A DNA stretch of 64,000 bases from the NCBI GenBank assembly GCA_051294905.1, contig CM119371.1, forward strand, positions 33,482,001-33,546,000, read 5' to 3'. Position numbers and translations under genes: made by a program. The notes under the pieces were generated by a model that worked only from the letters and a program-made list of their open reading frames with translations, was not told where the DNA came from and searched no databases. The stretch is from Botryllus schlosseri. Its lineage: Eukaryota. This document shows positions 5,108 to 51,139 of this stretch, one piece after another; the stretch's first letter is position 1; each line of letters opens with the position of its first letter.

Positions 5108-5190
5108 ATGGCGAAAGCTAGTTATGATGAGGCTGACAGTCTACTACAGTCTGCAGCTGACAAGCTACAAGTGTCCGGCGGAGAAAAAAG
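5108..5190 (+). CDS. SMUG1: SMUG1-like DNA glycosylase, coding exon 1 (MAKASYDEADSLLQSAADKLQVSGGEK)
   Basis: ATG at 5108, donor AG|GTGAAT. Phase 2 matches the acceptor at 7962. This exon has no homology support of its own. Confidence 0.65.
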
Positions 5191-7962
5191 GTGAATACGT
5201 GTTGTAATAAACTTGACACGGTTCATGGTTGTCTCATTAGAAGACTGTATCATATAGTCTAGGGATGCGAACAGGACGAAGTAGTTTTGGTAGTCACAAC
5301 CTGATTCATATGCCTAAATCCGAAGCAAATCGGCAAAAATGTTGACTGTTTTTGACTGCAATCACTCTCCATTCCCGGACAGTAGGGCTGGGTCGAGCAG
5401 TGAAAGATAATTTTGTCGAGTGCTTAAATTATCCGCCAATACGAGTCAATACATCACTAACAATTAGTTTCGATAGAATTCGATAGAATTTTCCAATAAG
5501 GAAGCTATATAAAGCCATGGTTGCTCGTACGTATTTATATTTTTTCTGCTCCCATATTCGAAGTTATTTGACCATGAGATTAGTAGCCTACTGTCAAATT
5601 CAAAATGTCCATAGTAGCTGCAAAAGTATAACCCGATAGCTTTTATGATGCCATCATACATTTGTCCGTGCATATGGTGTCTATATCTTATATTTGATAT
5701 ATATATATATATATATCTATATACATGCATGCTTGCATTCAGGCGATTTCTACTGAATGAGTACTAGTCAGCCTGCAATACTACCTGACCATGATCTAAT
5801 ACAGTGGTTCTCAGCCTTTTCCGACTCAGTCTCAATATCTCAATCAATCTCGATATACATATACGAATCCGAAAATGAGATCGATATTTCCCTTGCATCG
5901 CAATCTTGTGATGTTTTGATCCGATGAAAATTTCCATAAGCCGACCATGAGGCAATGATAAGACATGATACCAAGCAAATTCAAGACCAGGGTTCTTGAA
6001 CTTTTTTGATCGTGGGCCCCTTCAAGTTTTGGTAGTTTCAGAAGCTGATGTCTAGAATACACGAAACCGTCATCAAATGAAACTCAACTCTATTCAGGTT
6101 ATTCCCTGTCTAAAATAAGCTAAGTACTTGACAAGGCAGTCAGAGTCCCTGTCAAGGCGTCATTACCCAAGGATAATAATATGAATTTGTAGTTTCTTAG
6201 TGATGTAGTTTAACATTGCCCTCTCACAGACCCCGAACTCTAACGCAGTCCGTGGACGTCAGTTCAATAAACCCTGCACTAGACAGATTAATTGCCAGAA
6301 TTTCACCAGTCAATCTCGCATCGCGATTACGATAGGACTGTATTACTGGAAGGTCAAGACCAGCAATAGTCCTGTATCTCGACTAGCAATATTTTCCCAT
6401 TAAGCCGAAATTTATATTGCAGCATATATAAAAAATACGATATGTAGCCTATGTCTATTGAAGGTCATTCATTTATACATATTTCGTATTTAAGTCGTTT
6501 AAATACATATTATATTCAAACTCATTGATATCACAAGCAGCCAAATAATTCTCGACAATTAACATTTAAAAGTTGAAATATAAGATCGACAAGAAAGGAT
6601 TTAATTCGCGGAAGGTTAGCGCCGACGGACTTTTGTGGAAGATTTTGCGCTCCAGTACCCTCGTAACATTGTGCTTGTTAATCGGACGACTTTTCATAAT
6701 TGAGAGACTTCGGTTGATCGTAGCCGGTAGTGCGGTCAAGGCAAGGATAATATTGAAAGACATGACCTATGTATAGTATATGTACGGCATATTTGAAAGT
6801 ATGTGCAAATTAGGACCTTTTCTCCAAACAGCGGTCCAGGCCCGGATCGGGATTCGAGTCGTAGGACCACACCTTTCGAACATGATTGCAGTATCGAAAT
6901 ATTATTTATTTCGTCTTTCAGTTTGTTATCGAATGGAGCATAACGACGAAGAACATTAACTTATTTCATAAAACGTTCTTGTTACCGATTATCGAATTGC
7001 AAAGCCATAGTTAACAAAATATCGTCGGTGCTTGGTTTGAACAGCCATTGAAAATATGGCACAACGTGATCCTGTTGCAGACATTTCCGTTCAATTTGGA
7101 GGACTTGGTATAAGAAGGTGATTATTGCACTGTATTGTTTATGCATGAAATTTACACTAGGGATGCGCTTATCGCCCACTGGTAACTATTGCACCATACG
7201 TATTCATTTATGACAGTATATTTCCCAATATTAGATAAAATGCCAATTAAAGTTCATAAGGGGTCTCTGATCGCCTATATGTATCGCCTGATTCCGTCTC
7301 ACGTAGCCCAAGTCTAAAAGTTATGGATTTCAGCCTACGCTACATTGTCCCGTTTACCGTCGAATATATTAACCGATTGTGACATAATTACATCGTTTTA
7401 AAAAAGGCTGAATGTCTCTGGGGCATTTATTTAAAGAATTTTTAAAACAGGTGTGATTCAAAACACGGCCCACTTATAATTCAATTCTATACAGGCCCCT
7501 ACAACCGTTTTGCTCCCGACATCATGCATATGAAAAATGAGTATTTACTGCAAAAGAGTCAATCGTGTGGCAACGTCACATATATAACAAGTGGTGTGTG
7601 ACAATTTGTATCGAAGTTTCGACTTCGAGTATACAGGGACAGAAATTGATTTGAAATCACTCTGAGTTGAATTCATTTCCTGGTACAATTTACATGCTCA
7701 TACTGTGATGCTGCGTTGCATACCTTCACGAAAATGAGTGGTGAGTCAGATGAATAAGGTTTGCGATAGGCAGGTTATGCAAGCACGTCTCCGAAATTAT
7801 TAAAATAATTTAGAAAAATTCAATGAAAAAGAATCATTAATACAAATATCCATGAACCTCCGGGTGGATCCATGGAATGTCACCGTAGCGGATTAAACGT
7901 AAATTCAGATTCAGAATAGCATCCACCTTCAGAGATTTATGATGGATATGTCATTTCAACAG

Positions 7963-8218
7963 TTACAGTGTCAAAAACGAGTACAAGAAAATTATGAAGC
8001 AGCTCAAGGATGACTTCGAAGAAATATTACGAGATCAGCGCAATCAGGCGGATGGAAGTTTAAAACAAGAAATCTCCGGTCAAAAAATTCCTCTCATGTA
8101 CATCGTTAACACTTTAAAGTACGCTTGGCGACAACACGAACTGTACATCGAGCAGATGCCTTCTGACGTAACCGTTCTATTTGTTGGAATGAATCCTGCG
8201 CCGGATACCCCTTCTGGC
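7963..8218 (+). CDS. SMUG1: SMUG1-like exon 2 (...YIVNTLKYAWRQHELYIEQMPSDVTVLFVGMNPAPDTPSG)
   Basis: Acceptor TTTCAACAG, donor GTAAGT. The sequence aligns with SMUG1 IYNPVEYAWEPH...VLFLGMNPGP. Confidence 0.92.
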
Positions 8219-8990
8219 GTAAGTACACCATAATTACAGAGCATCAATATGAAAAAAGACTCTCGTCCATGCGGAGTATATCTCACAAGAATCATTTGCT
8301 CTTGCCCGAGCTTTAATGACAGTATATAGATTAGGGCAGATTGTCTCATTTTTAGCCGGAGCCGGTTCGTATCCAAATCAGTACTTTTTTGTGATACGAC
8401 CGGAGTCGGATCGGAGCCGGATCAGTCCTTTTCACTGAGAATAGGGCAGCGCTACCCTCTATCACTCTCGACTCAATAGTTAAAGTAAAACGTTCACGAA
8501 AAAAAAACATGCTAAGTCCAAGTTGGCATATTTATTTCAGAATAGTGTTGGCTTTATCTTTGAGTTTTTAATTTCGTGTTTGCATTATTTCAATCAATAT
8601 TTAATGTCATCCTGTGAGTAGATATATATTATCGGAGTTTTTCGGACCGGATCTTATAGTCATTTCTAGAATCCGACCTAGGAGTCGTACCAGAGCTTCA
8701 AAAAACAGGAGCGGGTAGGACCAGACAGTTTGTCGATCCGCTCCGGACTTGATCATAGCCGACGGCCTTGTTTGAATTCAGTTTGTGGATGGCTACTGCT
8801 ATTTCGAAGTGATTCGTAGGCTCGAGCATAACAGAAGGAGATCTTACCTCCGACATGACCGACGCAGGTTTCCTAATAGAAAAGGCAATAGTAGGACCTA
8901 CGTTAAAAAATATTCATTGAAGTGATTCGCGATGACAGTACGGTCTGAAAGTTTTTATTTGCGGATCTGATGTAAGTGAGAGTTGAGTGT

Positions 8991-11350: not shown

Positions 11351-11419
11351 CTCATGTGGTTTGGTGTTACACCCCCCCCCGCACTTATCGTCATTTAAAA
11401 AAGAGCACATCATCTAATG

Positions 11420-11867
11420 CAGTTGTGGGCAACCTTTTTGCTAATCACGGCCGCATTTCGACGACTTATGTAGCCTAAGGCCGCATTCCAGACCATAGCC
11501 GTTATGGGCTAACTGGTCGCAAAATAGCTATGTATGTATGCATGTATGTATCGGTAGTGGAAATAGTGGAAATACATTGAAATCGCCGAAATATACCATA
11601 AACAAATTTCTTTCGTGAGGAGCACACGATTCCGATTCCGGCTCAGATTGAGAAGGACGCTACTATATTTAAAATCGAAAAAATCAAATAATGTTAAATT
11701 AAGCGGAGCGCGAAAAAAAAATTCAAGATTATTTAAAATCTCTCCAAAATTCGGGAGGGAATTCGTGATTTCAATTTGCATGTCGACGGCCGCCAATACA
11801 TACTAATTGAATTAGGTGTTGATGACCGCATAAATTCCCTTTTGCGGCCGCAGGTTGCCCATCCCTG
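11420..11867. mobile_element. Non-autonomous hAT, same family as 9472-10241 and ~48099-49271
   Basis: TIR CAG..(G/A)TGGGCAACC, TSD ATCTAATG/ATCTAATA, shared internal GGCCGCATTCCAG motif. Confidence 0.8.
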
Positions 11868-13108
11868 ATCTAATATTATACTTATGGCATATCTGACGCC
11901 AAGTTTGAATCCGCATTCCAGTTATAGAGTCTTTAACATTTCTGACGAATTTCCTCAAACTTGTTTGAAAATAACAAAAAACATTGAACAGGACATCAAT
12001 TTAGTTCAAGGTAGGTTGCACTGAGACTAATCCTAATGCTAGTAGTGACTATAGATAGCACGGTGTCGTTCTGTACTGCCATGCTTAATTTGATCAGATT
12101 TGGAATTAAATTGTCTTGATTTAGGGTATCCTAATCGAGAGCGAAACCGGGTAAACTATGTTGCATCTAAGTCTGTCTTAAGCAGTGCAGTTCGCCAGCT
12201 ATTAACAACAGCTACCCCTCAAACCGATCTTTAGGCTACTGCCAAAGATATGAAGTAATTAAATCTTCAAAGAACATCAAACATTTGCTCACATAAACCA
12301 ATGATGATGAAGTTGAAATTAAGTTGAAATCCGTTGAGCGCGATTGCTGGAGTTTCAATTTGGCGAGCTTTCTCGAACACGAAATAAGTTTCATCTTCAA
12401 CAATCGTCTTCTCAGAATGGTTGTGAAACATATGTTTAGTAAAAATTCATACAGACTTTGTCAATTTTTCACGCCCCCTCCTGAGAGCCTCATGTGCCCC
12501 CCCCCCCCGCTCCAAGGGGGACGCGCCCCCCAGGTTGAGAACCACTGCTCAAAAGAGTCAATCACAAAAAACATTCACAATTAATAAATCCGATTTCACT
12601 TACCTGATTATATCACTACAACTTGTAAATTTGAATAAAACACTCTCATCGTAATCATATGACCGATCTTTTGTTTATATATTTTTTATTCACCTGTAAA
12701 ATTCGTTACTCTTCAGAAAGACAAAATAATTACTACTCGGTATATTCTGTAAGACAAAGTAATGACTACTCGATTCACGCGACTTGACATAAACATGTTA
12801 TGTTTTGAGTACATGAGATTTAAATACCCGGTCAAATATTGGCTGAGAATTAATTTATCACAAATGAATCCGTATATTAATCACAGTGTACAAGACATAA
12901 TAATGTCAGCATGTGGCGACACCATGCGGCACCACCACTGCGGTCATCGAAGCGTACAGTGCGTTCGTTTATTTTCATGTCGCTTTATATATAAAGCCGT
13001 TGATTGTGCTTTTGTTCAGTTCGCTCAAGTGCTGCTTACAATAAACTTGTTGCCCACTTAACTGGTGACCCCGCGATCCAGAGAATTCTGGATAGTTCAC
13101 GCAGCAAA

Positions 13109-13798
13109 ATGAATCCAGAGAATGAGGCAGGTTTAGATACACCAGCGGAGAACGCAGTGGCTATCAAGCTTCCTGCCTTTTAAGCCGCTCAGCCGCGCAC
13201 CTGGTTTTGCCAGGCCGAGGCCCAATTCCAGATTCGACGAATCACAACAGACAGCACAAAGTTCTACTACGTGGTCTCAGCATTAGACCAGGAAACAGCA
13301 AGTCGACTCGTCGATATTTTAGAGCAGCCTCCACAGGAGAACAAATACACAGCAATATAACAACGCCTTCTTGACACTTTCGACATTCCACGACAAGAGC
13401 GCGCAGCGAGACTAATTAGCATCCCGCGTTCGAGCAATCGTAAGCCTTCCACACTCATGGACGAGATGCTCTCTTTACTGGGTGATCATCAACCGTGTTT
13501 ACTATTCGAACACCTTTTCTTGCAGCATATGCACGAGGATATTCGCCTCGCACTCGTCGAGCAAGATATCACAAATCCTAGGGAGTTGGCCAAGCGAGCC
13601 GACTTGCTATGGCACGCACGTAGCACACACGCGGAATATGCGATTGACATATCAAAAAAGCGCCCAAAACAAGTTGATACCGATAGCAGCAGTACTTATG
13701 CGGACATGTGCTACTATCACAAGACTTTCGGCGACAAAGCACGCAAATGCTCTCCTCCTTGTTCCCATCAGGGAAACACCATGGCCGGTTGCCCTTGA
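13109..13798 (+). pseudogene. Gypsy gag with two in-frame stops (13181, 13358)
   Basis: Reads KLPAF*...TWFCQAEAQF...KFYYVVSALD, with the C-terminal knuckle [18 protein letters not shown]. Confidence 0.9.
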
Positions 13799-16700
13799 TG
13801 GCTGGAGCAACCGGTCAACATTCTAGCCCTTTTTTAGTGCACGATCTCGTCTCCCGGAAAAATTTCCTCATAGACACCGGCGCGGAAGTTAGTGCACTAC
13901 CGCCTACAAACTACGAACGCCAATTCAACGAGAAACGCGCTCCGTTGCAAGCAGCTAACGGCAGCATAATAACCACATACGTGACGCTCAACATCCCCGC
14001 GGGGACATTCACATGGAAGTTTATCCTGGCCGACGTCTCTGGACCACTCATCGGAGCCGACTTCCTGCGCGCCCATCATTTGCTGATCGACATGCACAAG
14101 CAGCTTCTTATCAACCCAAATCAGCGAAAAACCTACCCAGTAAGCAGGTACGCTCAGCCTGCACCACAGCTGAACACGATAGCTTCTCCGTATGACAAGC
14201 TCCTTGCCACGCATCCCCAACTGTCGGTACCCAAGTTCTCTTCGTCGTCAACGAGACATGGAGTAGAACACCACATAGTGACTTCAGGACAGCCAGTACA
14301 CGCACAGGCAAGACGTCTTCCACCAGACAGATTAGCTATTGCCAAAGCGGAGTTTCAACGAATGATGAGTTTGGGAATTGTCCGGAGATCATCCAGTCCT
14401 TGGTCGTCACCTTTACACATGGTTCCGAAATCATCCGGGGGCTGGCGACCCTGCGGGGACTATCGGCGTCTAAACGCTGCAACAACGCCAGAACGTTACT
14501 CCATTCCGCATATCCACGACTTCCCCGCTAAGCTAGCGGGGATTCGCATATTTTCGAAAGTTGACCTCGTCAGAGGATACCACCAAGTCCCGGTAGCACC
14601 CGCCGACATTCCCAAAACCGCGGTTATCACACCTTTTGGACTATTCGAGTTCCTTCGCATGCCATTTGGTCTAAAGAACGCTGCCCAGACGTTTCAACGA
14701 CTAATGGACACCGTCTGTCCAGATTTGCCATTCGTGTACGTTTATCTTGATGACATTTTGGTGGGTAGCCCGAACTTCGAGACGCATCTCGAGCATCTTC
14801 GCACTCTCTTTCAGAGACTGTGCGATCACGGCTTAGTGATCAACAAAGAGAAGTGCCAATTTGGGAAGGACAAGCTTGAGTTCTTGGGTCACATCGTGGA
14901 CCACCGAGGAATCGAACCCTTGCCCACCAAAGTAGACGCAATCACGCAATTTCCGCCGCCCAAAACCCTCAAGGCTCTTCAAGAATTTAACGGGATGATT
15001 AATTTCTATCACAGATTCATCCCTGCAATTGCCGACATCATGAGACCCCTTTATCGTGCGCTGGCCTGGCCGGCAAGCCACGAAACTTGGTCTGGGGCCC
15101 CGAGATAGACAAAGCTTTCAATGCAGCGAAGGAAGCGTTAGCCAACGCAACAATGTTGCACCATCCAAGATGCGCTGCTAACACCGCCCTCACTGTCGAT
15201 GCTTCACAAACGGCAGTTGGGGGAGTCCTTGAACAACTGGTCGACGGGGAATGGTGTCCCCTTGCTTTTTCCAGTCGGCAGCTTCGTAAGCCGGAGACAA
15301 AATACAGCGCTTTCGACCGAGAACTTTTGGCGCTACATTTGTGCATCAGGCATTTCCTATATTTCCTAGAGGGACGCGCTTTCACAGCTTTTACCGACCA
15401 CAAGCCACTCACCTACGCATTCACAAAACCTTCGGAGCCTTGGTCAGCACGACAACAGCGGCACTTTTGCGCGATTTCCGAATATACCACTGATGTCAAG
15501 CATATGAAAGGAAAAATAAACACGGTCGCGGACGCACTTTCGAGACCAACGATTGCTACTACCGGCCAACCGCCGACGCTTTTGAACCTAAACCTCGAAA
15601 ACTTAGCTAAAGCCCAAGAAACCGACGAGGTACGGGCTTATCGCACTGCGGTTACAAACCTACAGCTCAGAGACATTCCTATCGGAAACTCGGCAGTCAC
15701 GCTGCTATGCGATATCTCATGCGGACAACCTCGTCCCGTGGTTCCCAAACCTTGGAGAAGGAAAGTTTTCGAAACAATCCACGGTTTGTCACATCCGTCC
15801 ATTCGCATAACGAAAAAACTCGTGAGCTCGAAATTCGTTTGGCACGGTATGCAGAAAGAAGTGGGGTTGTGGGCCAAGCAATGCCTGGCGTGCCAGCGTT
15901 CAAAAATACATCAGCATGTTTCTTCGCCGGTTCAAGATTACCCTTCGCCGGTTCAAGATTACCCAACACCCTCAGCCCGCTTCAGCCATATAAACATTGA
16001 TCTGGTAGGCCCTTTGCCTCAATGCCAAGGCAAAACCTATTTACTTACAATAGTCGACCGATACACTCGTTGGCCAGAAGCGATCCCAATTGAAAACTCC
16101 ACAACCATCACGTGCGCCAAGGCGTTCATATTCCATTGGATTTCTAGGTTTGGTGTCTTCCGATCGTGGGCCCCAATTTACATCGGAATTGTGGTCAGCA
16201 ATCAATCAACTTTTGGGTATCGAACTTCACCGCACTACATCTTTCCATCCACAAGCAAACGGTTTGGTGGAACGGTTTCATCGACATCTGAAAAGTGCGT
16301 TAATGGCTCGTTTGACCGATGCAAACTGGGTCGACCACCTTCCGTGGGTTCTGCTCGGGAACCGCGCCCAACGAAGATCTAAAGACTACATCAGCCGAAC
16401 TAGTTTACGGAACTACACTCAACGTACCTGGCCAGTTTATCTCCCCGGAAGCCACACAAGAAGCAGAAAAGTTTATGCCGTCACTGCGAGAAACGCTTCG
16501 CAAGTTACTGCCTACGTCAATGTCCAGGCACGGCAATACACGAGTATTAATTCCAAATTGTTTGACAGATTGCAGTTACGTGTTCGTGCGGCGTGATACA
16601 CACAGACCTCCACTGACGAAACCGTACGACGGTCCCTTCAAGGTCCTCGAAAGGACCACAAAGACATTCAAGCTTCAAGTTAGGGGAAGGGAAGAGACGA

Positions 16701-16822
16701 TTTCTATCGACCGTTTGAAACCGGCGCACGTGGACCTCTGCATGCCAGTTCCGGTAGCTCAACCGAAGCCACGAGGAAGACCACGACGTCACACTCGGCC
16801 TCCGCAACGTTACCAGGCCTGA
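13771..16822 (+). pseudogene. Gypsy pol (protease, RT, RNase H, integrase) with frameshifts near 15087, 16160 and 16365
   Basis: Motifs [36 protein letters not shown] zinc finger, DLVGPL, SDRGPQF, QANGLVER and PYDGPF. Confidence 0.95.
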
Positions 16823-17599
16823 ACTGCCCGCTTCTGGAGGGGGCTATGTGGCGACACCATGCGGCACCACCACTGCGGTCATCGAAGCGTACAGTGCTTT
16901 CGTGTATTTTCATGTCGCTTTATATATAAAGCCGTTGATTGTGCTTTTGTTCAGTTCGCTCAAGTGCTGCTTACAATAAACTTGTTGCCCGCTTAAAGCA
17001 ACTCTTTACGGCCATAGGTATTACGATATTGACTCACTAACTTACCGAGTAACTCATCATGATCATTCTTGACCTTAAGTCTAAACGAAAACTAGAGCAA
17101 TGGACTCATCAACAACTCTATTTTAACCAAAGTAATTCATGCATTGTCGCGTTGAAAATACTTGAGTTCTTTTATCAATCATGTTATAGTGTAGTTGCAG
17201 AATACGTACTATAGTCAAATTGAGATAACTCGAACATGGTTTATAAAAAAGAACTCAAGTATTTTCAACGCGACAATGCATGAATTACTTTGGTTATAAT
17301 CGAGTTTTTCATGAGCCCATTGTTCGAGTTTTTGTTGAGACTTGATTTCAAGAATGATCATGATGAGTTATTTCCGTAAGTTAGTGAGTCAATATCGTAA
17401 TACCTATGACCGTAAAGAGTTGCTGGCATTATGATGTCTTTTACACTGTAATATGCGGATTCACTTGTAATAAATTAATCCTCAGCCAATAATTAACTGG
17501 GTATTCAAATCTCATATACTCAAAACATAATACGTTTATGTCGAGTCGCGTATATCCAGTAGTAATTACTTTGTCTTACAGAATATACCGAATTAAATA

Positions 17600-17843
17600 G
17601 TATATTCATATTGAAATGAACCCGAATATTTTCGGCTGACACTCGTCAGCAACTAGTAGAGAATTGGAAAGAACATTGCATATCAACAATCGTATCACAA
17701 AATATGACGTCACCAGCATGAAAGAGAGAGCGTTCAATGTACTATTTTTAGGTGGTACACGAACCCTTTTGTTGACAGAGTTTTGGTTGGTGTATTTTGA
17801 TAAAAGTTGATTCCAAGGCACACAAATGGAATTGTGAACGGCC
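17600..17843 (-). mobile_element. Penelope-like element 3' fragment (second copy)
   Basis: Reverse complement of ~52056-52322. Flanked by a ~30-bp duplication (AGTA.TAATTACTTTGTCTTAC.GAATA). Confidence 0.8.
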
Positions 17844-18570: not shown

Positions 18571-18574
18571 CGCC

Positions 18575-18995
18575 AAGAAATAACTCGGAAGTCACTGCCG
18601 CCGCAAAACGCTGTTTTTATCAAGTAGCGGGTATTCCTGGCGTAATCGGCTGCGTCGATGGATCTCATATCCCCATAAGTGCTCCGCATGATGATGAGGT
18701 TGCTTAAGTCAATAGAAAAAGAGTTCACTCTATTAATATCCAGGGAATCTGTGATGCAAACCTTTTATTTACCGATGTTGTGGCAAAATGGCCTGGATCA
18801 AATCATGACTCTTTCATACTTCAAAATTCAAGGATTTTTGACGATTTCGAAAGAGGCAAATTCGGAGATTCTTGGCTTCTAGGGGATAGTGGTTACTCGT
18901 TAAAGAACTGGCTGATGAATCCTATAATCGGCGAAAACACGGCAGCAGAGAAAAAATACAATAGGTTACACCGCAAAACATGTTGCTTGATGACG
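18575..18995 (+). pseudogene. PIF/Harbinger DDE transposase fragment
   Basis: Reads GIPGVIGCVDGSHIPI, HSINIQGICDA, KWPGSNHDSFIL, WLLGDSGY, EKKYNRLH; frameshifted. Confidence 0.9.
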
Positions 18996-19391
18996 TGATG
19001 TGCCATGGTAGAGTTGCTTTGGACTGAGTCATATTCATGCTACTACATTACTTCCCTCTGCTTATACTATAAATTATGATATCTATTTTATTTCCCTATT
19101 AGGGCTTTACCTTCATTTATACTTTATCTTCGCATAAGGACTCCTAATCTAAAATATTCCCAGATTTTATGTTACATGATATCCACCCAAAACGTCCAAT
19201 CTTTGAATTCTTGTCGGTAGGGTCAAGCCCGCCTATGACATAGTACTGAGGAAGATCCCATCGTAAAACACCAGAATGTCTTGTTAACCAAATTGTTGCG
19301 CAACATATATACTACATTCTCTTTAAACCCCGACAAGGAATCTGATGGATCCATTCGTCGAAGCCCTAGACTGCGCCCTTGCGGGCGCAGT
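18992..19391 (+). repeat. Dispersed non-coding repeat with a 3' GC hairpin (Helitron/Helentron-like); second copy ~38026-38450
   Basis: ~400 bp are shared. Hairpins are CTGCGCCC-TTGC-GGGCGCAG and CTACGCCC-TTAC-GGGCGTAG. The class assignment is inference. Confidence 0.55.
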
Positions 19392-19439
19392 GTTTCAAGC
19401 TTTTTTGGAACTACTGTAAAAACTTTGATATATATTGAC

Positions 19440-26204: not shown

Positions 26205-26314
26205 ATACCCTTTGGCCATGAGAAGATGATTCGGAAACTGTTCGGAATTGATATATCGAAGGAGAAATTAGACGGAATTCCCCCAATCCTCAAATCAAAA
26301 CAATATGTCGACAA
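26205..26314 (+). CDS. SMUG1: SMUG1-like exon 3 (IPFGHEKMIRKLFGIDISKEKLDGIPPILKSKQYVD)
   Basis: Acceptor TTTTAG, donor GTAAGT, phase 0 in and phase 2 out. IPFG continues the G|VPFG motif. Confidence 0.92.
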
Positions 26315-27943
26315 GTAAGTTAGAACTTATATTGTTGCCGAGTGCAAATCAGAATAGCTATAATAAAAATGACAGCCTTTTCATTAGAGTAGAAATATGA
26401 ATTACTGAATAGATGTTGGACCATCATCTGATTCAGCATGTCATGGAAATACGGCACGTTATTTGAATGTTCATGCTCCTGAATTTGTAGTGTTTATGTT
26501 TCCGAATTTGTTGTGTAACTACAGATCACTCAAATCTGCTTCTGTAAGCTTCTGCCGATGTTTTTTTCATCTTGCATCCCATTATTTCTTATATGCTAAC
26601 TTTGCGCCGTTGTCAAATGCTTGTGATGTAATGACGCCATGGTTTTAATGGGGAAAGCGTCATAAATTCTTCACGACACAAATTTTCGCCACTCATATTT
26701 ACAGATCCGAAAATGAGGACAGATATTGGGGAAATTTATACACCCACCTTTGATCGCATGTAAAAAAGGTGTCATTTTTTTCAGTATGTGCTCCGAAAAT
26801 CGGTTTCCGCGTCTACTTTTCGTTGAGTTAACCTCATTTTTAACTAAACTTTTGCGTTACATGCAAGATAAGCCACCTTCACGTGCATTTTCTGGCCACG
26901 GTATTTAAATAAATCTCACGGGACGTTCTAAAATTTAAAACATGTTTTAAACAGTGTTTTAAACAAAGACCTTTAAAAAAAATGTGTTTTTTTAAGCTGT
27001 AAAATTATACCATAATTGTGTAAATACTTTCTATAAAACATGTTGTATGGTCCTACGGACAATTAACACCCGATTCAGCCGACGTATATCAATATGGGAT
27101 GGTTAGACCCTCAGAATAGTCAGTTCAACAGATATTGTACAGATCTTTCTTCAAAGGAGCTATATTTACCCTATATTTACAATTGCCAATGCCAATCCAT
27201 TATGACGTCACAATTGAATATTCCTGACGTCGAAGCTTGAGAAAAAAGCGAAAAAAAACAATAACAAAACATGATTTAAATTAGGGACTTGATTTAAACA
27301 TGTTTGTTTTTAATTGACTCTTGTTTTACATGCAACCTTATGTAGGTTAGTTGATATCTAGTAACCTGCTTGATGATTTCAAAAAATGCATTCACATCAA
27401 GCTGAACTTTCTTTAGGCTGTTCCATGCCTCAATCAAGCTGACTTAAGACAAGGCAAGGCAGTCACAGAGCCACTCACGGCGTGAATCCTAGACAATAAT
27501 TTCGTTTGAGAATTTGTTGGTCATGCACTCAACAATACATTTTCACGGACGCCCTAAAAGTAGTTCTCTGCCATTCTTATCGAAAAGAGTGTGTATTCAC
27601 ACCTAAAAGAGTAGCACGAAAATAGAATCTACCACAGAATTATACCACGGCATGAATCAAACACCAACGTCCAATTCAAATGATTCTCGATAAATTAGAA
27701 TAAATAGGAGTACGAATGAACGTATGCATTCACGGTTTATAACAACGGTTTACACGAGGGGTTTCAAACTCAACTTGCGTCACGGGCGGATTCAACCCTT
27801 CAGATCGCTCGCTGGCCCCACTATAGGCAAATTATTTCAAAATATTACCTCTAAATGCATGCCCGTATTTTTTACTCAAATACTTTGCTTTCAAGCCTGT
27901 GTACGTGATAGTATATTACCAATCATTGTGGTTTTGCTGTAAT

Positions 27944-31826: not shown

Positions 31827-34800
31827 CAGGGTTGTAACCAATGCACATTGTTCCGAGTCACGAGTCAATCTTACTTTTGTGGTTTTGACTCGAGTCAAGT
31901 CGAGTCATTTTCAATTCATCACCGAGTCGAGTTCGAGTCCAAGTCACCGTTTAAAGGGTCAAGTCCGAGTCATAGTGTTATGACTCGAGTCGAGTCCAAG
32001 TCACGATATTGAAGTAATGTTCAACTTATGTTTTCAATCCTGAATTAGCTTGTAGCTTATAGAGAATCACCGAATTCATTCTACATGCTATCTGATATAG
32101 AACCAACGAATTCAGGTCTAGATACCAGCTGGTAGAGAATCAACAGATGCATGTTTATGTAGACGTACAGTTTTTCTTTCACATTATCAGGTGGTTGACT
32201 AAAAAAGGTCAGCTTTCCTGCTCAGCTCCCGAAATAGCCGGCCACCTCATGATATTGTTATATTGTGTAAAAATATGATTCATAGCAAATCTGGCTCAAT
32301 TCCAACTAGAAAAAGCGAATTTATTAGAGTGGAATATTTTGGATATGAAAAAATAGTCGGCTTACTACTAGCATGTAAGTATATTAGGCTATATGAAATA
32401 ATTTCTCACCAAAAACACTCCCTTTATTTTCAAATATAAAATTTTCTCCTCTCATATCATTGAATATACTTTTTAAAATTAAGCCAGATTCATTGTTCTT
32501 TTTATGCAACATAACAACTTTACTAAGTAGCCACCCAGTAAAATAAATAAGAACTTATTTTTGAACAACCCTATTGTACAAACATCACACAACATTAGGC
32601 ATTCATTATTACTCACGTGCACAATGTTCATACCTAACAAAACGTCAAATGGACGGAGTGTATTGTGTGTTTTCACTGACAGCAGATCGAATCAATGATG
32701 ATTTACAATTCAAAAATACTAAAGTCGAAAGGAGATCCTCATATATGTTATAGCGGCATGGCCTTAGAATAAATCCACATCTACTGAAACACGTTCCACT
32801 GGTGCACTAGATACAGGAATTGACAAGGATTTTTGAACCACATTGAAGAGCATCGGATACTCATTATTTCTGGTCGCCCAATAATGCAAAGAATCATCGC
32901 CTTCAAATCTACACATGAGCTTATCAGTCTCTTCCAAGTACTTGACCATCTGAGTCATTTCATTGCCTCTAATTGAACTTTGCTTCGGTTGTTTGCTTGC
33001 ATAATTGAAAAGTCTCGAGTACTTTTGCGGATGATCTATTACCTCTTCATTGCAGGATGATTTTGTATACAATGCATTACTACAACATGTGCCATTGTCT
33101 GTTGTTTTTAAGGCGGCATATCTGATATCAGACGAGTGCAACGAAAGCAGTGGTGCCAAATAGCGATATCGACAGAATTTGTCATTTATGCGTTGATCTA
33201 GCCCAGGGGTCGGCAACCTTTTGCTAATCGCGCGCCAAATTCCGAGTGCACAACTTTTTGGCGGGCCGGAATTTTTCTTGATAATATATTTAACGCTCAC
33301 GTCGGTTTAGTACCCTACATTGCTGCAATCTCAATCATACAAATCACAAAAAGGGCAAAACACATGTATTTACACTTCAACAACGCAGCATAAATGTGAC
33401 ACTTGGCGCAGCATGCTTTGTAAAAGAATTTCAACTTCTAATAACAAGTCAGATGAAGCAACAATCAAACCACATTCTAAATGGACATTAGAATACGTGA
33501 TCTTAGCTTGCTCTTCGTGAATTCCATTGTTTTAAACTATTTTTCACATGCGTACGTGCTATCAAAAGTCGATGCCATTTCTTTTGCATTGTTGGTCAAG
33601 CTGGGATAAAGACCCATTTCACGAACGTACTCTTTGTCAAAGTCAGGCAGCGATATGCTCTTTGTATGAAATTTGTCTTTCAATTCAACTGCATCGCACT
33701 TCAAAAGGGCCCATTTGAAATTTTCAGGCAACGGTATTGGTGCTCACATTAAACCGAGTACTAAGTATTCAGAATTTATTTTGTACAGAACGAATGTTGG
33801 AAAAGGGGTGGAAATTCAGTAATTAAATTTCGTATCACAGTTACAAAGGTATAGTGCTGGTACTAGAGGTTTACTCTCCATCAGTATAGGAAAGTGAGCA
33901 TAATTTTCTTTTTACTGTTGACGTTCCAAGAGTCGCAGTTTTGTTTCGAATGCGCCTCAACATCTCATGTATTCAGTTATTTCCTCCTGAAGTTGCAAAT
34001 TCAATTTGTTAGATGTGACGTTAAATGTACTACGAAAGCAAGATTAGATACCCATATTCGATGACAATATTATGAGTCGGCGATGTTTGTATTTTCAAGG
34101 AAAGTTGCTATATTTCGTTTCTCAGTTCATACACTCGTGCAAGGATAGCGGCTCGACATAATGGACGAACATGGCAGATATACAGGACATCGCCATATTG
34201 ATTCTCTGCTTTTAGTAATATCTGAGGTAGGATAACTGTCGGTGATTCAGTTTGTGAGACAAAATCAGCTTTCCCCACTGTGTCGAAAACACTATTCAGG
34301 TTTGTTGTCTTGGCCTACAATGTCTTCTGGTGAATTAAACTGCAGATGACTAACCTATGGAGGCTGGTTATCTCAAATGAAACGGATAGTTTGAGATTTT
34401 GTCATTGCGTCTGAGATGTTCCAAGCGTTTTTGAAGCAGAGGAACCGCACCTTTAATGTCGCACCCTATCAGAGTGGCAACCCCTTAAAAAGTATGGTAT
34501 ATAGGCCGACCTATGGTTGGGCGATACACACGCTTTATAAGCACTGGTCTAATCAACAGCCTTCGCATCAGTTTTATGGCGTAACAATAGACCAATACGA
34601 CGTAGGATACTTACATCGTAGCAATGTCGCATTCTTACCAAGCAGTGCTGCAGTGCTGCACTGCAGATTGGAACTCATTACGAAACGGCGGGCCGTATTC
34701 TTGTGGTAACTAATTATTTCGTCGCGGGCCGGACGAATTCGCTTGGCGGGCCGGATCCGGCCCGCGGGCCGTAGGTTGCCGGCCCTTGATCTAGCCAGTA

Positions 34801-36810: not shown

Positions 36811-36977
36811 ATATGGCAAGTCACGCGATTGTGTCAGTGGAAGACGGTTCTGGAAATTCACGAATAGACCCGTCGCGGATATCGATCAGGTCCGCAAACA
36901 GAGCTTCGTAATGAACTGCAGCCCGTTGCTCTTCACTGGAAGAACCGAAAAATGGAATGGACCAAAAGAAAAAGCGT
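36811..36977 (+). CDS. SMUG1: SMUG1-like exon 4 (YGKSRDCVSGRRFWKF...SFVMNCSPLLF...)
   Basis: Acceptor TTTTACAG, donor GTACGG, phase 2 in and phase 1 out. Matches SMUG1 EVSGARFW and FVHNLCPLLF. Confidence 0.92.
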
Positions 36978-40768: not shown

Positions 40769-41183
40769 CCCAATATCAAGAAGTGATAGTAGAAAGTTCC
40801 ATCCATGGAATTTTACAATCACAGATGGTCAATATTGGATGCAGATAATCTGCATTTTGCCCACAAATGCTGGAATGTGTGAAGGCCTGTTCAGTAGAAA
40901 CTTTCTGATGCTTATAATACCTTTGGTCAACCAGTTCAAAGTTTTGAGCACGACGCTTATAGTCGAGTCACATAAAATGTCAATAATAGAAACATCCTGA
41001 ATGTCCCTCTTTACCTGTCCAAATTTCCTCTCCAGTGACTAATAGCAGGTCAGTAGTTGTCTTGCCGACTTGTATATTGGAAGAGAAGAAACTTATCTCC
41101 AACTGTGCTGTATCCTTGGCCTTTCGGATTTGATTTGTAAGGTGCATTGGTAACTTGCATTCCGTGGTTCACAACTAGAGCTC

Positions 41184-42445
41184 ATGAAAAGCTACCAGAC
41201 TGACAGATATCAAATGGTTTCGATATGCAACACCTTGTCCTCCCCCCACCTTGTTACCTGTGGTGTTCCGCAAGGCTCTGTTCTTGGACATGGCCTTTTT
41301 ACTTTATATGTCAATGATATCTTTGAAACCTCATCATTGAATACCACACTCTTCGCTGACGATATTCACCTCCTATCTCTCGCACCTACTACCGTAAGCT
41401 TAAATGCCGTCACCCGTGATCAAATGCCCAAAGTGCCTGAGTGGATGTCCCATAATAGCCTTCGGGTTAATGCTGCGAAATCCCAATTATTGGTCGTGAC
41501 ATCCTGCGATAACCTAACCGTTGACATCGCTGGCAAACCATTTTCCAACACTAAAAATGCCAAATACCTTGGTGTTTTACTGGATTCGGACATGTCCTGG
41601 AAGAGTCACATACAATCACTCAAACCACAACTATCGAAGGTATGTGGTCTATTTCGCCACCTTAGCTGCACTCTGCCCGTCAGCGTGCTGTTGATACGCT
41701 TCAACAATCTATTCCTATCAAAGTTACAATACGGAATTCTATGTTGGGGTGCTACCTGCAAGAATACAATTGACCCTCTGCAAAAACTTCAACATCGGAT
41801 CATCCGTATCATTGCCTAAGCCCTACGGGGGCCTGGATGTGCAACTGATAATATCGCTTCTCAAAGGATTTAGTGTTCTAAACTTGGAAGATATGAGGAA
41901 GCTAGAAATTGCCAAGCTTATGTATCAGTTCCATTGCGGTCAATGTCCCTCAAATTTCAACGACTACTTCACCTCGGAGACAAAAGCGCACAAGTACAGC
42001 TCACGCGCGTCATCGAAGAACAACTACCATATGATCAAGACTGAATACAAGAAAACGCACTGCTCTATCAAGTATGCCAGACTCCAATTGTGGAACAGCA
42101 TGTCGCCGGCTATCCGACAGTCGTCGAGCATGTCCGCATTCAAGTCGAAATACAAGTAATTTCTTCTAAACCTAAACTAGCCAGTCTTCAGGATTACCGG
42201 ACCAAGACCTAACATCGACCTAGCCCTCCGCCACATGCCACCTCATTTTGTCGCTTGCGTCTTATATTCTCTGCATTACTTTTCATTCAGTGTGCATGCC
42301 TCCTATTTACTTCGCCTAGGCTAAGGTGGGTGTCTGATCTTAATGGCTACTTCAAGTTGTTTCGTCACCTTCCTATCTTGTAATTGTATCGCAGATGTTT
42401 TGAAACGATGAAAATAGTAATAAACCCGATTAATTGATTGATTGA
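41184..42445 (+). mobile_element. 5'-truncated CR1/L2-group LINE (RT C-terminal half, 3' UTR, (ATTG)n tail)
   Basis: Motifs GVPQGSVLG, FADD, KYLGVLLD, LQKLQHRIIR; frameshift near 41815. Confidence 0.92.
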
Positions 42446-44126
42446 AAGGCGATATGCATAGTGCGGAGCATGGACCGGAGCCGGATTAGATATCCGGCAG
42501 GTTATTTTCAATTTTGGCCAGACCGGATCAGTACTTTTTTGATGCGGCCGGAGCCGGATCAGTACTTTTTGATAAGGCCAGGATCTTTAATAATAAGCAT
42601 GACTTGTGTAACTGAATAACTACCAACCACACGTCAGTAACCGCCAAACCAGTGCGAAATAAACGAGCCATATTTATAAATTCACAGAGCCACCGTACCG
42701 TACCGAATTTGTGCCCAGTCTTAACAGCAGTAATTTCTGACTAGACATTTTCCCTCCAATATTCAAGTCTAGTTGTGCAGTGAAATAGCTTGTATTTATC
42801 GAAGAAAGCAATTAAATAACACCTTATGCAGAAGAGAAACCGAAAGTCGAGACATCAAGGGCAATGGAAGTAGAATATGGAACAATGTTACCTTGCTCAA
42901 TCGCACCTGTGAGGGTAACTAATCTGGATGTGTTTCGTGTCAGCAGTGTGATGGCACATTCAAACAAGAGAAGCTCAGTGGCACATCATCATTCATGCAC
43001 CCATATTAACAATAGATGCATGTTATCCAAAAAGAGAACATCAGGCCAATGTTCGATGTCATCATTTTTGAGAAACAAAAAATATCTGTTGCTTCGTTGC
43101 CAAGTAATGCCAAGATCCAATTACCGGTATACTTGAAACTGCCAAATCATATATATATTGAGAAGGAATTTATACCATCGTGTCATCCAGATAATGCTGT
43201 TGAAAGAGGAGTGCTGCTGTAGAGAAGAAAATCCAGCAATTTGAAATAGGCTATCGACGAATATGGAATGATTGTGTGGACTGATATCACTGACTGAAAG
43301 GAAAGGAACCAGGGTACACCGCTTTCTGATCATCTTGCACAAAGAAGCAAGCTCTCAAAGATATGAAAAATGAAGATCCAATACCTTATCAAAAACGAGG
43401 AACTGAAAATCTTGTAATTTCAGTCAGTACAAAGATTACCGGTATTTCGCTTCTTACACCAATCGACATTGACTTTTCCTACAATATCGACATCTAATGC
43501 TGCCAGTGAGTGACTATTTAGGATATGTGGCAATGCCATTACAAAGAATAGGTCGACCGTGTCCTCTTTCAGCCTGGAATCAATAGTTACATAGAATAGT
43601 CCATAAAAATAAACCACTTGCCCAGTCTAAGTTGATATAATTACTTCAGATAAAGGTTGGGCTTGATCTTTTAGTTTTTAATTTCTTGTATGTTTTGTTT
43701 CAATCAATATGCAATACCAACATGTGAACTTGAAACTTATTGGCATGTTGTGTTGTTTCAATTTTCAATAACAACCTGTAAGTTCTTAATGTCATATTTC
43801 TTTTTTTGCAATATAACCTTTACCTGATCGCATAATCCACTGCTTATGTAGTTGAATAGAAATAGGTATCCTCCTGGCAGATGATCATTATCGGAGTTTT
43901 TTGGATCGGATATTGCTCATTTTGAGAATTCGGAGTCGGACCAGAGCATTGAACAACAGGATCGGAGTCGGTACAGAGAATTTGTTGATCCGCTCCGCAC
44001 TAATATGGAGACACATTACGATCTCTTAACAAAGTAGAGTAGCTTGAAGCGTTGAAACGTAGTTTAAATACATGCACATACGCACATTCGAATCTGCTTA
44101 TTGATGTTACTCTGTTCGCATTACAG

Positions 44127-44277
44127 ATCAAAAAAATATTTCACTGAATGATTTAAAATATTACAAACACCAGTTGGTGAGAAATTTGATGGAGAAAAGT
44201 GAGGACGCGTTGAAGAGGGCCATCAACTTGCTGCAGCCGAAACTGATCGTGGCGTTTGGCCAATATGTTGAAGAAAG
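44127..44277 (+). CDS. SMUG1: SMUG1-like exon 5 (QKNISLNDLK...EDALKRAINLLQPKLIVAFGQYVEE)
   Basis: Acceptor ATTACAG, donor GTAGGA, phase 1 in and phase 2 out. Matches SMUG1 NLTPAEL...LLGVRLVVGVG. Confidence 0.9.
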
Positions 44278-50089: not shown

Positions 50090-50290
50090 TTGAGTAGTTT
50101 TAGTTCTAGTTGCTTATTTTGAAAATCAAGTAGTTTTAATTGTAGTTGTAGTTGCGGATTTTGAAAATTGACTAGTTCTAGTTGCGGATTTCGAAAATCG
50201 GGTAGTTCTAGTTAAAGTTACAGTTGCAAGTTTTAAAAATTGAGTAGTTCTAATTCTAGTTGCGCTTTTTAGAAAATCGAGTAGTTTGTA
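50090..50290. repeat. Degenerate short tandem array (TAGTTCTAGTTGC...GAAAATCGAG)
   Basis: About 5 units of 30-45 bp are visible. Confidence 0.7.
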
Positions 50291-50374
50291 CAAGTCTGTT
50301 TTCACGGTATTTTTTTGTGGCTGGTTCTTGCTTATACGGGAATGTTGGCAATCTATTGTGAATCACTTGGCAAT

Positions 50375-50640
50375 AAAATGACTGCAAAAGAAGTAAGAGC
50401 ATTCAACGCATTTCGAGATGTGGTTGAAAATTTTCTTGGTAAATAAACGAAGCAATGAATGGTAAACAATGACATCGAGATATATGAAAAAATATAGTGG
50501 GGCATGTCCTTAAAAACGCATTGCTTGCACTTTCACCTTGATTTTATTAGTTCAAATTTGGGTGATGTGAGCGAGGAACATATGTGAAGTGTTTCAGCAG
50601 GATATGTATGATGAAAAAAGATATGCCGTCATATACCATG
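50375..50640 (+). pseudogene. DNA transposase C-terminal remnant (probably Chapaev3/CMC-type)
   Basis: Reads AFRDVVENFLG and MSLKTHCLHFHLDFISSNLGDVSEEH. The family assignment is from memory of the motif. Confidence 0.55.
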
Positions 50641-50940
50641 ATACAAAGACGTATATTTCACATTAAAATATCAGGTCAACCAAAATTTAATTTGAAGCCA
50701 TAAAAAGAAAATCTCTGTTGCGGACTCGCGTCGAAGGTAATTGCATGAGAGGAAAGCATTTGTCTGTATGCTATAACATACGAATCCACGAAGTGGAACA
50801 ATTGGATTATCATAGCGAATTGTATAAATATTTCCGAACCCACTGTCTCATCGGTAACACAACTCCGTTATATGGCACATTTTATGGCAGAGATCATGAA
50901 ACTGTCGACTATAGTTTTTAATGCAGCTTTAACTTGACAG

Positions 50941-51139
50941 ACTTGAAAAGCTTGGCTTCAGCACGTCTTATGTGGTGCGTGTTACACATCCTTCTCCAAT
51001 AGTAGATGGACAGGAGGACAATGAAGCCGATCCGGATACGGGAGACGACAAATGGATTGCTAAAGTTAAAGAGGAATTGAAGAAAAATTCGCGATGGAAT
51101 GAACTCATGCGGGCAAATCAAAACAGTATTAGTTATTGA
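50941..51139 (+). CDS. SMUG1: SMUG1-like terminal exon 6 (LEKLGF...VTHPSPIVDGQEDNEADPDTGDDKWIAKVKEEL...ISY*)
   Basis: Acceptor TTGACAG, phase 2. Contains the UDG motif-2 HPSP and the downstream Trp helix; stop TGA at 51137-51139. Confidence 0.92.

What the first reader, a model, noticed from the sequence alone, without database searches (positions are those of the whole stretch)
5108..51139. Hidden 46-kb, six-exon SMUG1-family glycosylase with a remodelled specificity pocket
Seen: six exons join in frame into a stop-free 321-aa protein, and about 98% of the gene span is intron. Compared with human SMUG1 as I recall it, catalytic N85, F98, N163 and H239 equivalents are kept (GMNP, IPFG, VMNCSP, THPSP). 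However, GMNPGPFGMAQTGVPFG becomes GMNPAPDTPSGIPFG: Gly87 is Ala, the loop is two residues shorter, and Met91 is absent. Gly87/Met91 form the pocket that excludes thymine but admits 5-hydroxymethyluracil. Inference: this is a lineage-specific paralogue with a different substrate base, not a plain SMUG1 orthologue.
Basis: partly seen in the sequence, partly recalled or inferred. Interest (0 to 1): 0.8.

Follow-up and report, generated by a model that had tools for sequence, protein, structure and literature searches.

The report
SMUG1-like glycosylase gene, tandem family member
This is a real, spliced six-exon gene for a SMUG1-type DNA-repair enzyme, but its shortened base-pocket loop is shared by at least eight neighbouring copies, so the loop marks a whole fast-evolving family and not this gene alone.

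Summary
Six GT..AG exons (5108-51139, + strand) join into 966 nt, giving 321 aa plus a stop. 97.9% of the span is intron filled with transposons. The product matches a SMUG1 profile end to end (97 bits). Contigs from two runs carry the exact exon 2-exon 3 joint that creates the short loop.

The gene is one of at least eight same-strand SMUG1-like loci spread over about 0.88 Mb. Seven of the eight carry the same two-residue-shorter loop with Ala or Ser in place of Gly87; the eighth is degenerate. Three homologues from other datasets carry it too. Bacterial, Daphnia and short-loop queries find no canonical SMUG1 elsewhere in the genome. The loop is therefore a clade trait, not a mark of this copy.

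dN/dS against the nearest copy is 0.43, which indicates purifying but relaxed selection.

Any substrate change is untested.

Earlier scan notes on other windows of this genome (e1-7804435, e1-7804442) had already flagged the cluster.

The parts
5108..5190 (+). Exon 1 (coding part): ATG plus 27 codons and 2 nt. Donor AAAAAG|gtgaat.
   Evidence: The X1 contig carries 200 nt upstream of its exon-2 piece.
7963..8218 (+). Exon 2: N-terminal helix, the NxLKYAW block and motif 1 (catalytic Asn in GMNP at 8186). It ends ...GMNPAPDTPSG. Donor |gtaagt.
   Evidence: 1OE4, E 1e-5; 35.5 bits. RNA contigs X1 and X2 cover 7961-8218 with 0 mismatches.
26205..26314 (+). Exon 3: starts IPFG (Phe98 equivalent). 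Acceptor tattttag|, donor |gtaagt.
   Evidence: The joint 8218->26205 (GT..AG) is present in X1 and X2, and X1 leaves at 26314.
36811..36977 (+). Exon 4: SGRRFW block and FVMNCSPLLF (Asn163 equivalent at 36911-36925), then the first part of an 11-residue insertion. Donor T|gtacgg.
   Evidence: (18.7 bits). There is no GT upstream of this donor within the exon tail. The same donor and phase occur in paralogues at 33.62 and 32.75 Mb.
44127..44277 (+). Exon 5: helix plus strand, ...LQPKLIVAFGQYVEE. Acceptor cattacag|, donor |gtagga.
   Evidence: Found with the SMUG1 profile (11.4 bits) and with P0126/P0127.
50941..51139 (+). Exon 6: THPSP (His239 equivalent, 50984-50998), then an 18-residue stretch before the conserved Trp (19 counting it, 8 acidic and 1 basic, 50999-51055) where canonical SMUG1 has the 8-residue wedge, then the C-terminal helix and TGA.

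Best explanation
The locus is an intact, transcribed member of a lineage-specific tandem array of SMUG1-derived (UDG family 3) DNA glycosylase genes. The array has at least eight loci, all on the + strand, over about 0.88 Mb of contig C1.

Shown here: the gene structure, one complete splice joint and the boundaries of two exons in RNA-type contigs, SMUG1 homology over the whole core, and retention of the four residues that define SMUG1 chemistry. These are the Asn of GMNP, the stacking Phe of PFG, the base-reading Asn, and the His of HPSP. Also shown: the short Ala/Ser-containing pocket loop predates the duplications, because all non-degenerate copies and three foreign homologues have it. No canonical SMUG1 is detectable elsewhere in the genome.

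Inferred: the array descends from the animal SMUG1 gene by accelerated evolution and together stands in for it. The window copy still flips out and hydrolyses a uracil-like pyrimidine by the Asn/His mechanism. However, its C5-substituent pocket (the Gly87-Met91 equivalent) and its DNA-intercalating wedge differ from SMUG1, so substrate range and DNA binding probably differ as well. The wedge here is 10 residues longer and has 8 acidic residues against 1 basic.

The 46-kb size is secondary. The introns were inflated by an LTR retrotransposon, a PIF/Harbinger element, a hAT element and a non-LTR element. Two sister copies are much more compact: their matched exons span about 7 kb and 2.5 kb.
For: Gene model: 6 exons, all GT..AG, 321 aa.

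Homology: 97.1 bits to a profile of 114 SMUG1 proteins, with collinear exons. Exon 2 against 1OE4 gives E 1e-5.

Transcript: the joint 8218->26205 appears in 2 of 4 runs laid (X1, X2, which are from one study). Exon-2 and exon-3 sequence at 100% identity exists only at the window locus in the assembly, so the assembly holds no processed copy that could explain the joint.

Family: 8 exon-2 homologues, 6 exon-4, 8 exon-5, 3 exon-3 and 2 exon-6 homologues, own copy included, all on C1 + strand. The exon-5 count includes one lone fragment at 33,563,990. Seven of the 8 exon-2 copies read FVGMNP[AS]... ending in [SC]G before a GT donor.

No canonical copy: P0009 (bacterial) gave 7 of 7 matches in the cluster. 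P0197 (Daphnia) gave 5 of 6, the sixth at E 0.8 with 2 stops. P0126 gave 15 of 16, the sixteenth at E 0.23.

Foreign short-loop homologues: P0126, P0127 and P0004 are at most 53% identical to any copy here. Arthropod and bacterial SMUG1 all have the canonical loop.

Tree: the short-loop clade has SH-aLRT 99, and the three genomic copies group together at 97.

Selection: omega is 0.43 (0.26-0.64) against the nearest copy over 195 codons, and at most 0.25 against a distant copy where dS is saturated.

Conserved splice donor between copies.

Residue roles come from passages of PMC7922111 and PMC6749576.

Fold of a short-loop proxy (P0126, pLDDT 88): the best PDB matches are SMUG1 from Geobacter, human and Xenopus, TM 0.75-0.77 by target.

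Transposons in the introns.
Against: Two bulk RNA-seq raw-read runs (X23 and X24, 6% and 13% of each run read) put no read on exon 2 or exon 3. Expression is therefore low or restricted.

X1 and X2 are only guessed to be RNA, and both come from one study.

The X2 contig reads through the exon-3 donor to 26381. That form would stop one codon later.

Three of the five joints were not observed.

Omega of 0.43 is high for a housekeeping repair enzyme. It is a pairwise average that cannot say which lineage is relaxed.

An acidic loop at the position of the DNA wedge could weaken DNA binding, so catalytic competence is not assured.

The search for a canonical SMUG1 works exon by exon and scores only the best candidates. 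A copy cut into many small exons, or lying in an assembly gap, could be missed.

Descent from the animal SMUG1 gene, as opposed to an older side branch, is not shown. The tree is unrooted, the stem is long (1.2 changes per column), and no vertebrate or other deuterostome SMUG1 was in the tree.

The Ciona SMUG1 listed by PMC1919486 ranks high in similarity to human SMUG1, which suggests that at least one sea squirt has a more canonical gene. The figure was not available to me.
Confidence: 0.7

Rival explanations
1. One reading: this particular gene is a neofunctionalised side-copy that has switched to a different substrate base through its remodelled Gly87/Met91 pocket, working beside an ordinary SMUG1.
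For: The pocket loop really is two residues shorter, with Ala for Gly and no Met. Published mutagenesis assigns C5-substituent recognition to Gly87-Met91 (passages of PMC7922111 and PMC6749576). The gene is one of many paralogues.
Against: The loop is not specific to this gene. It occurs in 7 of 8 copies and in 3 foreign homologues. No ordinary SMUG1 was found with three queries. Nothing done here measures substrate.
Confidence: 0.12
2. The gene is a decaying or regulatory, catalytically dead copy. It is one redundant member of the array drifting toward pseudogene status while its frame is still open.
For: The wedge loop is replaced by an acidic insertion (8 acidic, 1 basic). Omega is 0.43. 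The introns are swollen by transposons, including a young LTR element whose LTRs are 98% identical. Two raw RNA-seq samples show no reads, and one contig retains the intron. An earlier scan note reports a sister copy that has lost catalytic residues (e1-7804435; not checked here). One copy has a degenerate motif 1 (RMDPS).
Against: The 321-codon frame is open across six exons. All ten splice signals are intact. All four catalytic or recognition residues are kept. A spliced transcript exists at depth 12-14. Omega lies significantly below 1 (upper bootstrap bound 0.64).
Confidence: 0.15
3. The gene is a plain single-copy SMUG1 orthologue whose odd motifs merely reflect fast sequence evolution in this lineage.
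For: There is no canonical SMUG1 elsewhere, and the short loop is clade-wide.
Against: The gene is not single-copy. There are at least eight loci, 27-68% identical in exon 2, with differing wedge loops. The copy at 33.18-33.20 Mb has a basic wedge of canonical length (HPSPKNGKGKTDW), whereas this one carries the acidic insertion.
Confidence: 0.03

Closest known systems
[quoted passage not shown]
   Same: The order of all core blocks is the same. The catalytic Asn (GMNP), stacking Phe (PFG), base-reading Asn and His of HPSP are kept. Exon 2 hits 1OE4 at E 1e-5. A proxy of the same short-loop clade folds like these structures.
   Different: The pocket loop is 2 residues shorter, has Ala for Gly87 and has no Met91. 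The block NYCPL reads NCSPL. There is an 11-residue insertion after that strand. The wedge (PRNPQANK in the literature) is replaced by an 18-residue acidic stretch. The N-terminus is about 45 residues longer than in the 239-residue bacterial SMUG1 used in the alignment. The gene is multi-copy, not single-copy.
Bacterial SMUG1 (Geobacter metallireducens, 5H93/5H98; Planctomycetota proteins P0006-P0125)
   Same: The profile of 114 such proteins aligns to residues 69-277 at 97 bits.
   Different: All 30 bacterial sequences aligned have an invariant G-P-W-G-M-A-Q in the loop and ASP.AN..W after HPSP. The window gene lacks both.
Short-loop homologues P0126 and P0127 (transcript-sized contigs from other, unnamed datasets) and the fragment P0004
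   Same: They share the two-residue-shorter loop with Ser at the Gly87 position, followed by IPF. They form one clade with the window gene (SH-aLRT 99).
   Different: They are only 33-47% identical in exon 2. They keep NYCPL and a wedge of canonical length, and they lack both insertions.
Sister copies in the same array (exon 2 at C1:33,623,267; 33,182,434; 32,746,828 and others)
   Same: They have the same exon structure, the same donor at the E4/E5 joint and the same short loop. The copies at 33.62 and 32.75 Mb also share the E4/E5 insertion. The copy at 32.75 Mb shares the length of the wedge insertion.
   Different: The nearest copy is 60% identical over 195 codons. The copy at 33.18-33.20 Mb keeps a short basic wedge. 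The matched exons of two sister copies span about 7 kb and 2.5 kb, against 46 kb here.
SMUG2 (Pedobacter heparinus, 5H0J)
   Same: It belongs to the same superfamily branch and is the second-best group of structural matches for the proxy model (E 3e-6).
   Different: It is a much weaker match than SMUG1 (TM 0.58-0.59 against 0.75-0.77). Its motifs were not compared here.

Membership tests
SMUG1 (UDG family 3) | Significant full-length similarity to SMUG1 profiles, with blocks in order | tested here: met
   97.1 bits, E 5e-32 (Z=1), HMM positions 24-218 of 239. Exon-wise hits came in the right order among 3358 ORF pieces.
SMUG1 (UDG family 3) | Motif 1 catalytic Asn (human Asn85) in GMNP | tested here: met
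   GMNP at 8186-8197 aligns with the invariant G-M-N-P.
SMUG1 (UDG family 3) | Canonical pocket loop G-P-[WFY]-G-M-x-Q-T-G (human Gly87-Met91), full length | tested here: not met
   The window gene has A-P-D-T-P-S-G, two residues shorter, with no Gly and no Met. In canonical sequences the loop is invariant (30 of 30) and is present in all arthropod sequences viewed.
SMUG1 (UDG family 3) | Stacking Phe (human Phe98) in PFG | tested here: met
   IPFG at the start of exon 3.
SMUG1 (UDG family 3) | Base-reading Asn (human Asn163) in the N-Y-C-P-L strand | tested here: met
   The Asn is kept in MNCSPLLF, while the Y-C that follows it reads C-S.
SMUG1 (UDG family 3) | Motif 3 His (human His239) in HPSP | tested here: met
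   THPSP at 50984-50998.
SMUG1 (UDG family 3) | Intercalating wedge loop after HPSP (human 239-249, with Arg243), 8 residues before the conserved Trp | tested here: not met
   There are 18 residues before the Trp, 8 acidic and 1 basic, with no Arg at the wedge position. The role of the loop is taken from passages of PMC6749576 and PMC7922111.
SMUG1 (UDG family 3) | SMUG1 alpha/beta fold | tested here: inconclusive
   The spliced window protein could not be handed to the folding tool. The proxy P0126 (same short-loop clade, 33% identical in exon 2) has pLDDT 88 and its best PDB matches are SMUG1.
SMUG1 (UDG family 3) | Excision of U, hmU, fU and hoU but not T from DNA | not testable with these tools
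   This needs recombinant protein.
SMUG1 orthologue (descent from the single animal SMUG1 gene) | Placement inside animal SMUG1 in a rooted tree, or conserved synteny (SMUG1 flanks Hox clusters, PMC13012124 passage) | tested here: inconclusive
   The tree is unrooted, has a long stem and contains no deuterostome SMUG1. None of the 80 homeodomain matches lies on contig C1.

The most novel reading that the evidence does not exclude
The array is a diversifying set of SMUG1-derived glycosylases in an animal that has given up the canonical enzyme. In this reading the C5-pocket loop and the DNA wedge have been re-tuned copy by copy: a short basic wedge in one copy, a long neutral one in another, and a long acidic one here. 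Different copies would then recognise different modified pyrimidines or different nucleic-acid contexts, for instance in defence against viruses or transposons with modified DNA, or in turnover of an epigenetic base. The window copy would be an active enzyme with a specificity unknown for any UDG.
Probability: 0.12. Interest if true: 0.75.

Novelty: new variant of a known kind. Interest (0 to 1): 0.42.

Why it matters
SMUG1 is normally a single-copy gene with near-invariant active-site motifs. The loop changed here is the one that published mutagenesis links to telling uracil and 5-hydroxymethyluracil from thymine.

A natural family of eight or more copies, all lacking that loop's Gly and Met and differing from each other in the DNA wedge, offers a ready-made series of variants. 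It could be used to test how family-3 glycosylases read the C5 substituent and search DNA.

It also raises the question of how this animal removes uracil and oxidised pyrimidines without a canonical SMUG1.

If the copies turn out to have ordinary or no activity, this is simply a lineage-specific gene expansion in a transposon-rich region.

Tried and rejected
- Pfam on single exons found no UDG hit. PF03167 against the whole genome found 0 matches and missed even this cluster, so it says nothing about UNG or other UDGs.
- The search for homologous proteins with exon 2, longer proteins: 14 candidates, none at E <= 0.001. The product of this gene is therefore not in that collection.
- The search of protein representatives with exon 2 gave 5 hits. 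Three are spurious repeat proteins (P0001-P0003). Two are useful fragments (P0004, P0005).
- PDB sequence search with exons 4, 6 and 3 alone gave SMUG1 only at E 0.4-1.7, nothing, and nothing respectively.
- The look-up of sequencing runs: no RNA holder listed.
- Own-genome search with an alignment is not accepted by the tool. Single proteins were used instead.
- Hox synteny as a test of orthology: none of the 80 homeodomain matches lies on C1.
- The ESM Atlas with P0126 returned only generic bacterial UDG clusters and no taxa for the short-loop clade.
- Other SMUG-like pieces in the window: none beyond the six exons. The best other match is 51596-51664 at E 1.9. The hit at 2599-2760 (E 0.41) was not reproduced.
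- Literature: no paper in the library couples SMUG1 with tandem duplication or paralogues in tunicates. This rests on listings from searches and on passages read in PMC13746493, PMC1919486 and PMC13012124. The supplements of PMC13746493 held as text do not mention smug1. Its figure S9 and figure 1 of PMC1919486 (which includes the Ciona motifs) could not be seen and may bear on how widespread the short loop is.
- The search of earlier findings near the window and for relatives returned nothing.
As a result, full gene models exist only for parts of two sister copies.
Full report
**Observation**

The window is eukaryotic DNA: contig C1:33,482,001-33,546,000 of a 495-Mb assembly. An earlier scan note calls the organism a sea squirt. 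I did not test that.

This gave six exons:

| Exon | Coordinates |
|---|---|
| E1 | 5108-5190 |
| E2 | 7963-8218 |
| E3 | 26205-26314 |
| E4 | 36811-36977 |
| E5 | 44127-44277 |
| E6 | 50941-51139 |

- All five introns are GT..AG and the phases fit.
- 97.9% of the 46,032-nt span is intron.
- The joined product aligns to a profile of 114 bacterial SMUG1 proteins over profile positions 24-218 of 239 at 97.1 bits.
- Exon 2 alone finds Xenopus SMUG1 (1OE4) at E 1e-5.

**Transcript evidence**

I laid four runs on window:7800-26450.

- Contigs of X1 (1275 nt, depth 13.8) and X2 (631 nt, depth 11.9) skip 8218->26205 with GT..AG ends and no mismatch. This is the joint that creates the short loop.
- Both start their exon-2 piece at the predicted acceptor. 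X1 leaves exon 3 at 26314.
- X1 has 200 nt before and 707 nt after these pieces. That is what exon 1 plus a 5' UTR, and exons 4-6 plus about 190 nt of 3' UTR, would need.
- The assembly holds exon 2 and exon 3 at 100% identity only at this locus, so no processed DNA copy in the assembly explains the joint.

Points against:
- X1 and X2 are only guessed to be RNA, and both come from one study.
- X2 reads through the exon-3 donor.
- Two raw RNA-seq runs (6% and 13% read) gave no read on exons 2 and 3.
- The other three joints were not seen. The odd exon-4 donor (T|GTACGG) recurs at the same place and phase in two sister copies, and there is no earlier GT in the exon tail.

**Motifs**

The canonical consensus is GMNPGPWGMAQTGVPFG, invariant G-P-W-G-M-A-Q in 30 of 30 sequences. 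Against it, exon 2 ends GMNPAPDTPSG and exon 3 begins IPFG. This confirms Ala for Gly, a loop two residues shorter, and no Met.

The Asn of GMNP, the Phe of PFG, the Asn in MNCSP and the His of HPSP are all kept.

- Asn85 and His239 act in bond cleavage.
- Phe98 stacks on the base.
- Asn163 reads the base.
- Gly87-Met91 reads the C5 substituent.

The same passages describe the loop after His239 (239-249, with Arg243) as the wedge that enters the DNA. In the window gene that loop is replaced. Eighteen residues, 8 acidic and 1 basic, lie between HPSP and the conserved Trp, where canonical proteins have eight. There is also an 11-residue insertion at the E4/E5 junction, and NYCPL has become NCSPL.

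**Family context**

Searching the genome with exon 2 gave 10 matches:
- Eight are exon-2 homologues on C1, + strand, at 32,746,828; 32,898,963; 33,146,226; 33,182,434; 33,252,821; 33,312,178; 33,489,964 (this gene); and 33,623,267.
- One is the upstream half of one of these copies.
- One is noise on C15.

Exons 4, 5, 3 and 6 found 6, 8, 3 and 2 matches respectively, own copy included, all in the same interval.

Seven of the eight exon-2 copies end FVGMNP[AS]P..PSG, or a close variant, directly before a GT donor. The eighth is degenerate (RMDPS). The short loop is therefore older than the duplications.

The short loop also occurs in P0126, P0127 and P0004 from other datasets. These are at most 53% identical to anything in this genome. 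Every arthropod and bacterial SMUG1 I viewed has the canonical loop.

In a quick maximum-likelihood tree of 27 rows, the window gene, two sister copies, P0126 and P0127 form one clade (SH-aLRT 99) on a long stem. The three genomic copies group together (97). The tree has no vertebrate or other deuterostome SMUG1 and is unrooted.

**Is there a canonical SMUG1 as well?**

Three queries were run against the genome:

| Query | Matches in the cluster | Other matches |
|---|---|---|
| P0009 (bacterial SMUG1) | 7 of 7 | none |
| P0197 (Daphnia SMUG1) | 5 of 6 | one at E 0.8 with two stops |
| P0126 (short-loop) | 15 of 16 | one at E 0.23 |

No second SMUG1 locus is detectable. The search works exon by exon and scores only the best candidates, so this is not proof of absence.

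**Selection and differences among copies**

- Against the nearest copy (33.62 Mb; 195 aligned codons, 60% identity): dN 0.285, dS 0.668, omega 0.43, bootstrap 95% range 0.26-0.64.
- Against the copy at 32.75 Mb, dS is saturated and omega is at most 0.25.

The wedge differs between copies:
- The copy at 33.18-33.20 Mb has HPSPKNGKGKTDW, which is canonical in length and basic.
- The copy at 32.75 Mb has the long insertion but with Arg and Lys.
- The window copy has the long, acidic form.

The matched exons of two sister copies span about 7 kb and 2.5 kb. The window gene's introns hold the following transposable elements:

| Element | Position | Evidence |
|---|---|---|
| LTR retrotransposon | LTRs at 12911-13061 and 16846-16996, 98% identical | RT, RNase H, integrase |
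| PIF/Harbinger DDE fragment | 18.7-19.0 kb | Pfam DDE domain |
| hAT fragment | 32.8-33.3 kb, - strand | Pfam domain |
| Non-LTR element | 41.2-41.8 kb | RT domain |

**Fold**

The spliced product could not be given to the folding tool. As a proxy I folded P0126 with a 60-row alignment (pLDDT 88). Its best PDB matches are SMUG1 from Geobacter, human and Xenopus (E 1e-14 to 2e-12, TM 0.69-0.77 by target), followed by SMUG2. This shows that the short-loop clade keeps the SMUG1 fold. It says nothing about the two insertions of the window gene.

**Verdict**

The gene is an expressed, intact, SMUG1-derived glycosylase gene.

The gene is a lineage-specific paralogue, but the loop change is a trait of the whole clade, there is no canonical SMUG1 beside it, and a new substrate is untested.

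The most likely mechanism (inferred) is SMUG1-type base flipping and Asn/His-assisted hydrolysis of a uracil-like base, with altered C5 reading and an altered, possibly weakened, DNA wedge. I put 0.7 on the identity and family reading. The rivals are 0.15 on a decaying copy and 0.12 on a copy-specific substrate switch.

Two earlier scan notes on other windows of this genome (e1-7804435, e1-7804442) had already reported the cluster. I confirmed the cluster independently, but I did not check their statements about those other copies.

In the paper library I found no description of a SMUG1 expansion or of this loop variant. PMC1919486 lists a Ciona SMUG1 orthologue, and PMC13746493 says smug1 is missing in thaliaceans and appendicularians (passages).

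Noticed in passing
window 12911-16996 (+): An LTR retrotransposon lies inside intron 2. It has 151-nt direct repeats at 12911-13061 and 16846-16996 that are 98% identical, and long open frames with RT, RNase H and integrase domains (13687-16822). It looks young.
   Followed up: partly
window 17097-17324 and 17130-17751: A long hairpin-like element matches several plant miRNA-precursor models, all below their gathering scores. The bin 17130-17751 has very high depth in contigs (1363 and 2910) and many loose ends in raw RNA reads at 17591-17649. It is probably an abundant, transcribed MITE- or SINE-like repeat.
   Followed up: partly
window 18708-18998 (+), 32764-33306 (-), 41154-41819 (+): Transposon fragments lie in the introns: PIF/Harbinger DDE_Tnp_4, a hAT dimerisation domain, and a non-LTR reverse transcriptase.
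   Followed up: partly
L021 (G000:C1:33,563,990) vs L022 (G000:C1:32,909,936): A lone exon-5-like piece lies 18 kb beyond the window end. It encodes the same peptide as exon 5 of the copy at 32.9 Mb over about 50 residues, so it looks like a recent partial duplication within the array.
   Followed up: no
window 26315-26381: The X2 contig continues past the exon-3 donor into the intron. That form would meet a TAA one codon later, so it is either unspliced RNA or a truncating isoform.
   Followed up: no
window 51596-51664 (+): There is a weak exon-4-like match (50% over 24 residues, E 1.9) just downstream of the gene. It may be chance or a relic.
   Followed up: no
window 141-719 (+): A 192-aa open frame has no Pfam match. 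Its nature is unknown.
   Followed up: partly
P0128 (761 aa, named Musca autumnalis by its source): One predicted fly protein carries several SMUG1-profile domains in a row (four hits; the two strongest are 91 and 150 bits). Tandem SMUG1 duplication may therefore also occur in a fly, or neighbouring genes were merged in one gene model.
   Followed up: no
L035 2199-2272 (copy at C1:33.62 Mb): Where the window gene's exon 2 is continuous, the nearest copy has about 75 nt containing a TAG between the two halves. This is either an extra short intron or a disruption.
   Followed up: no
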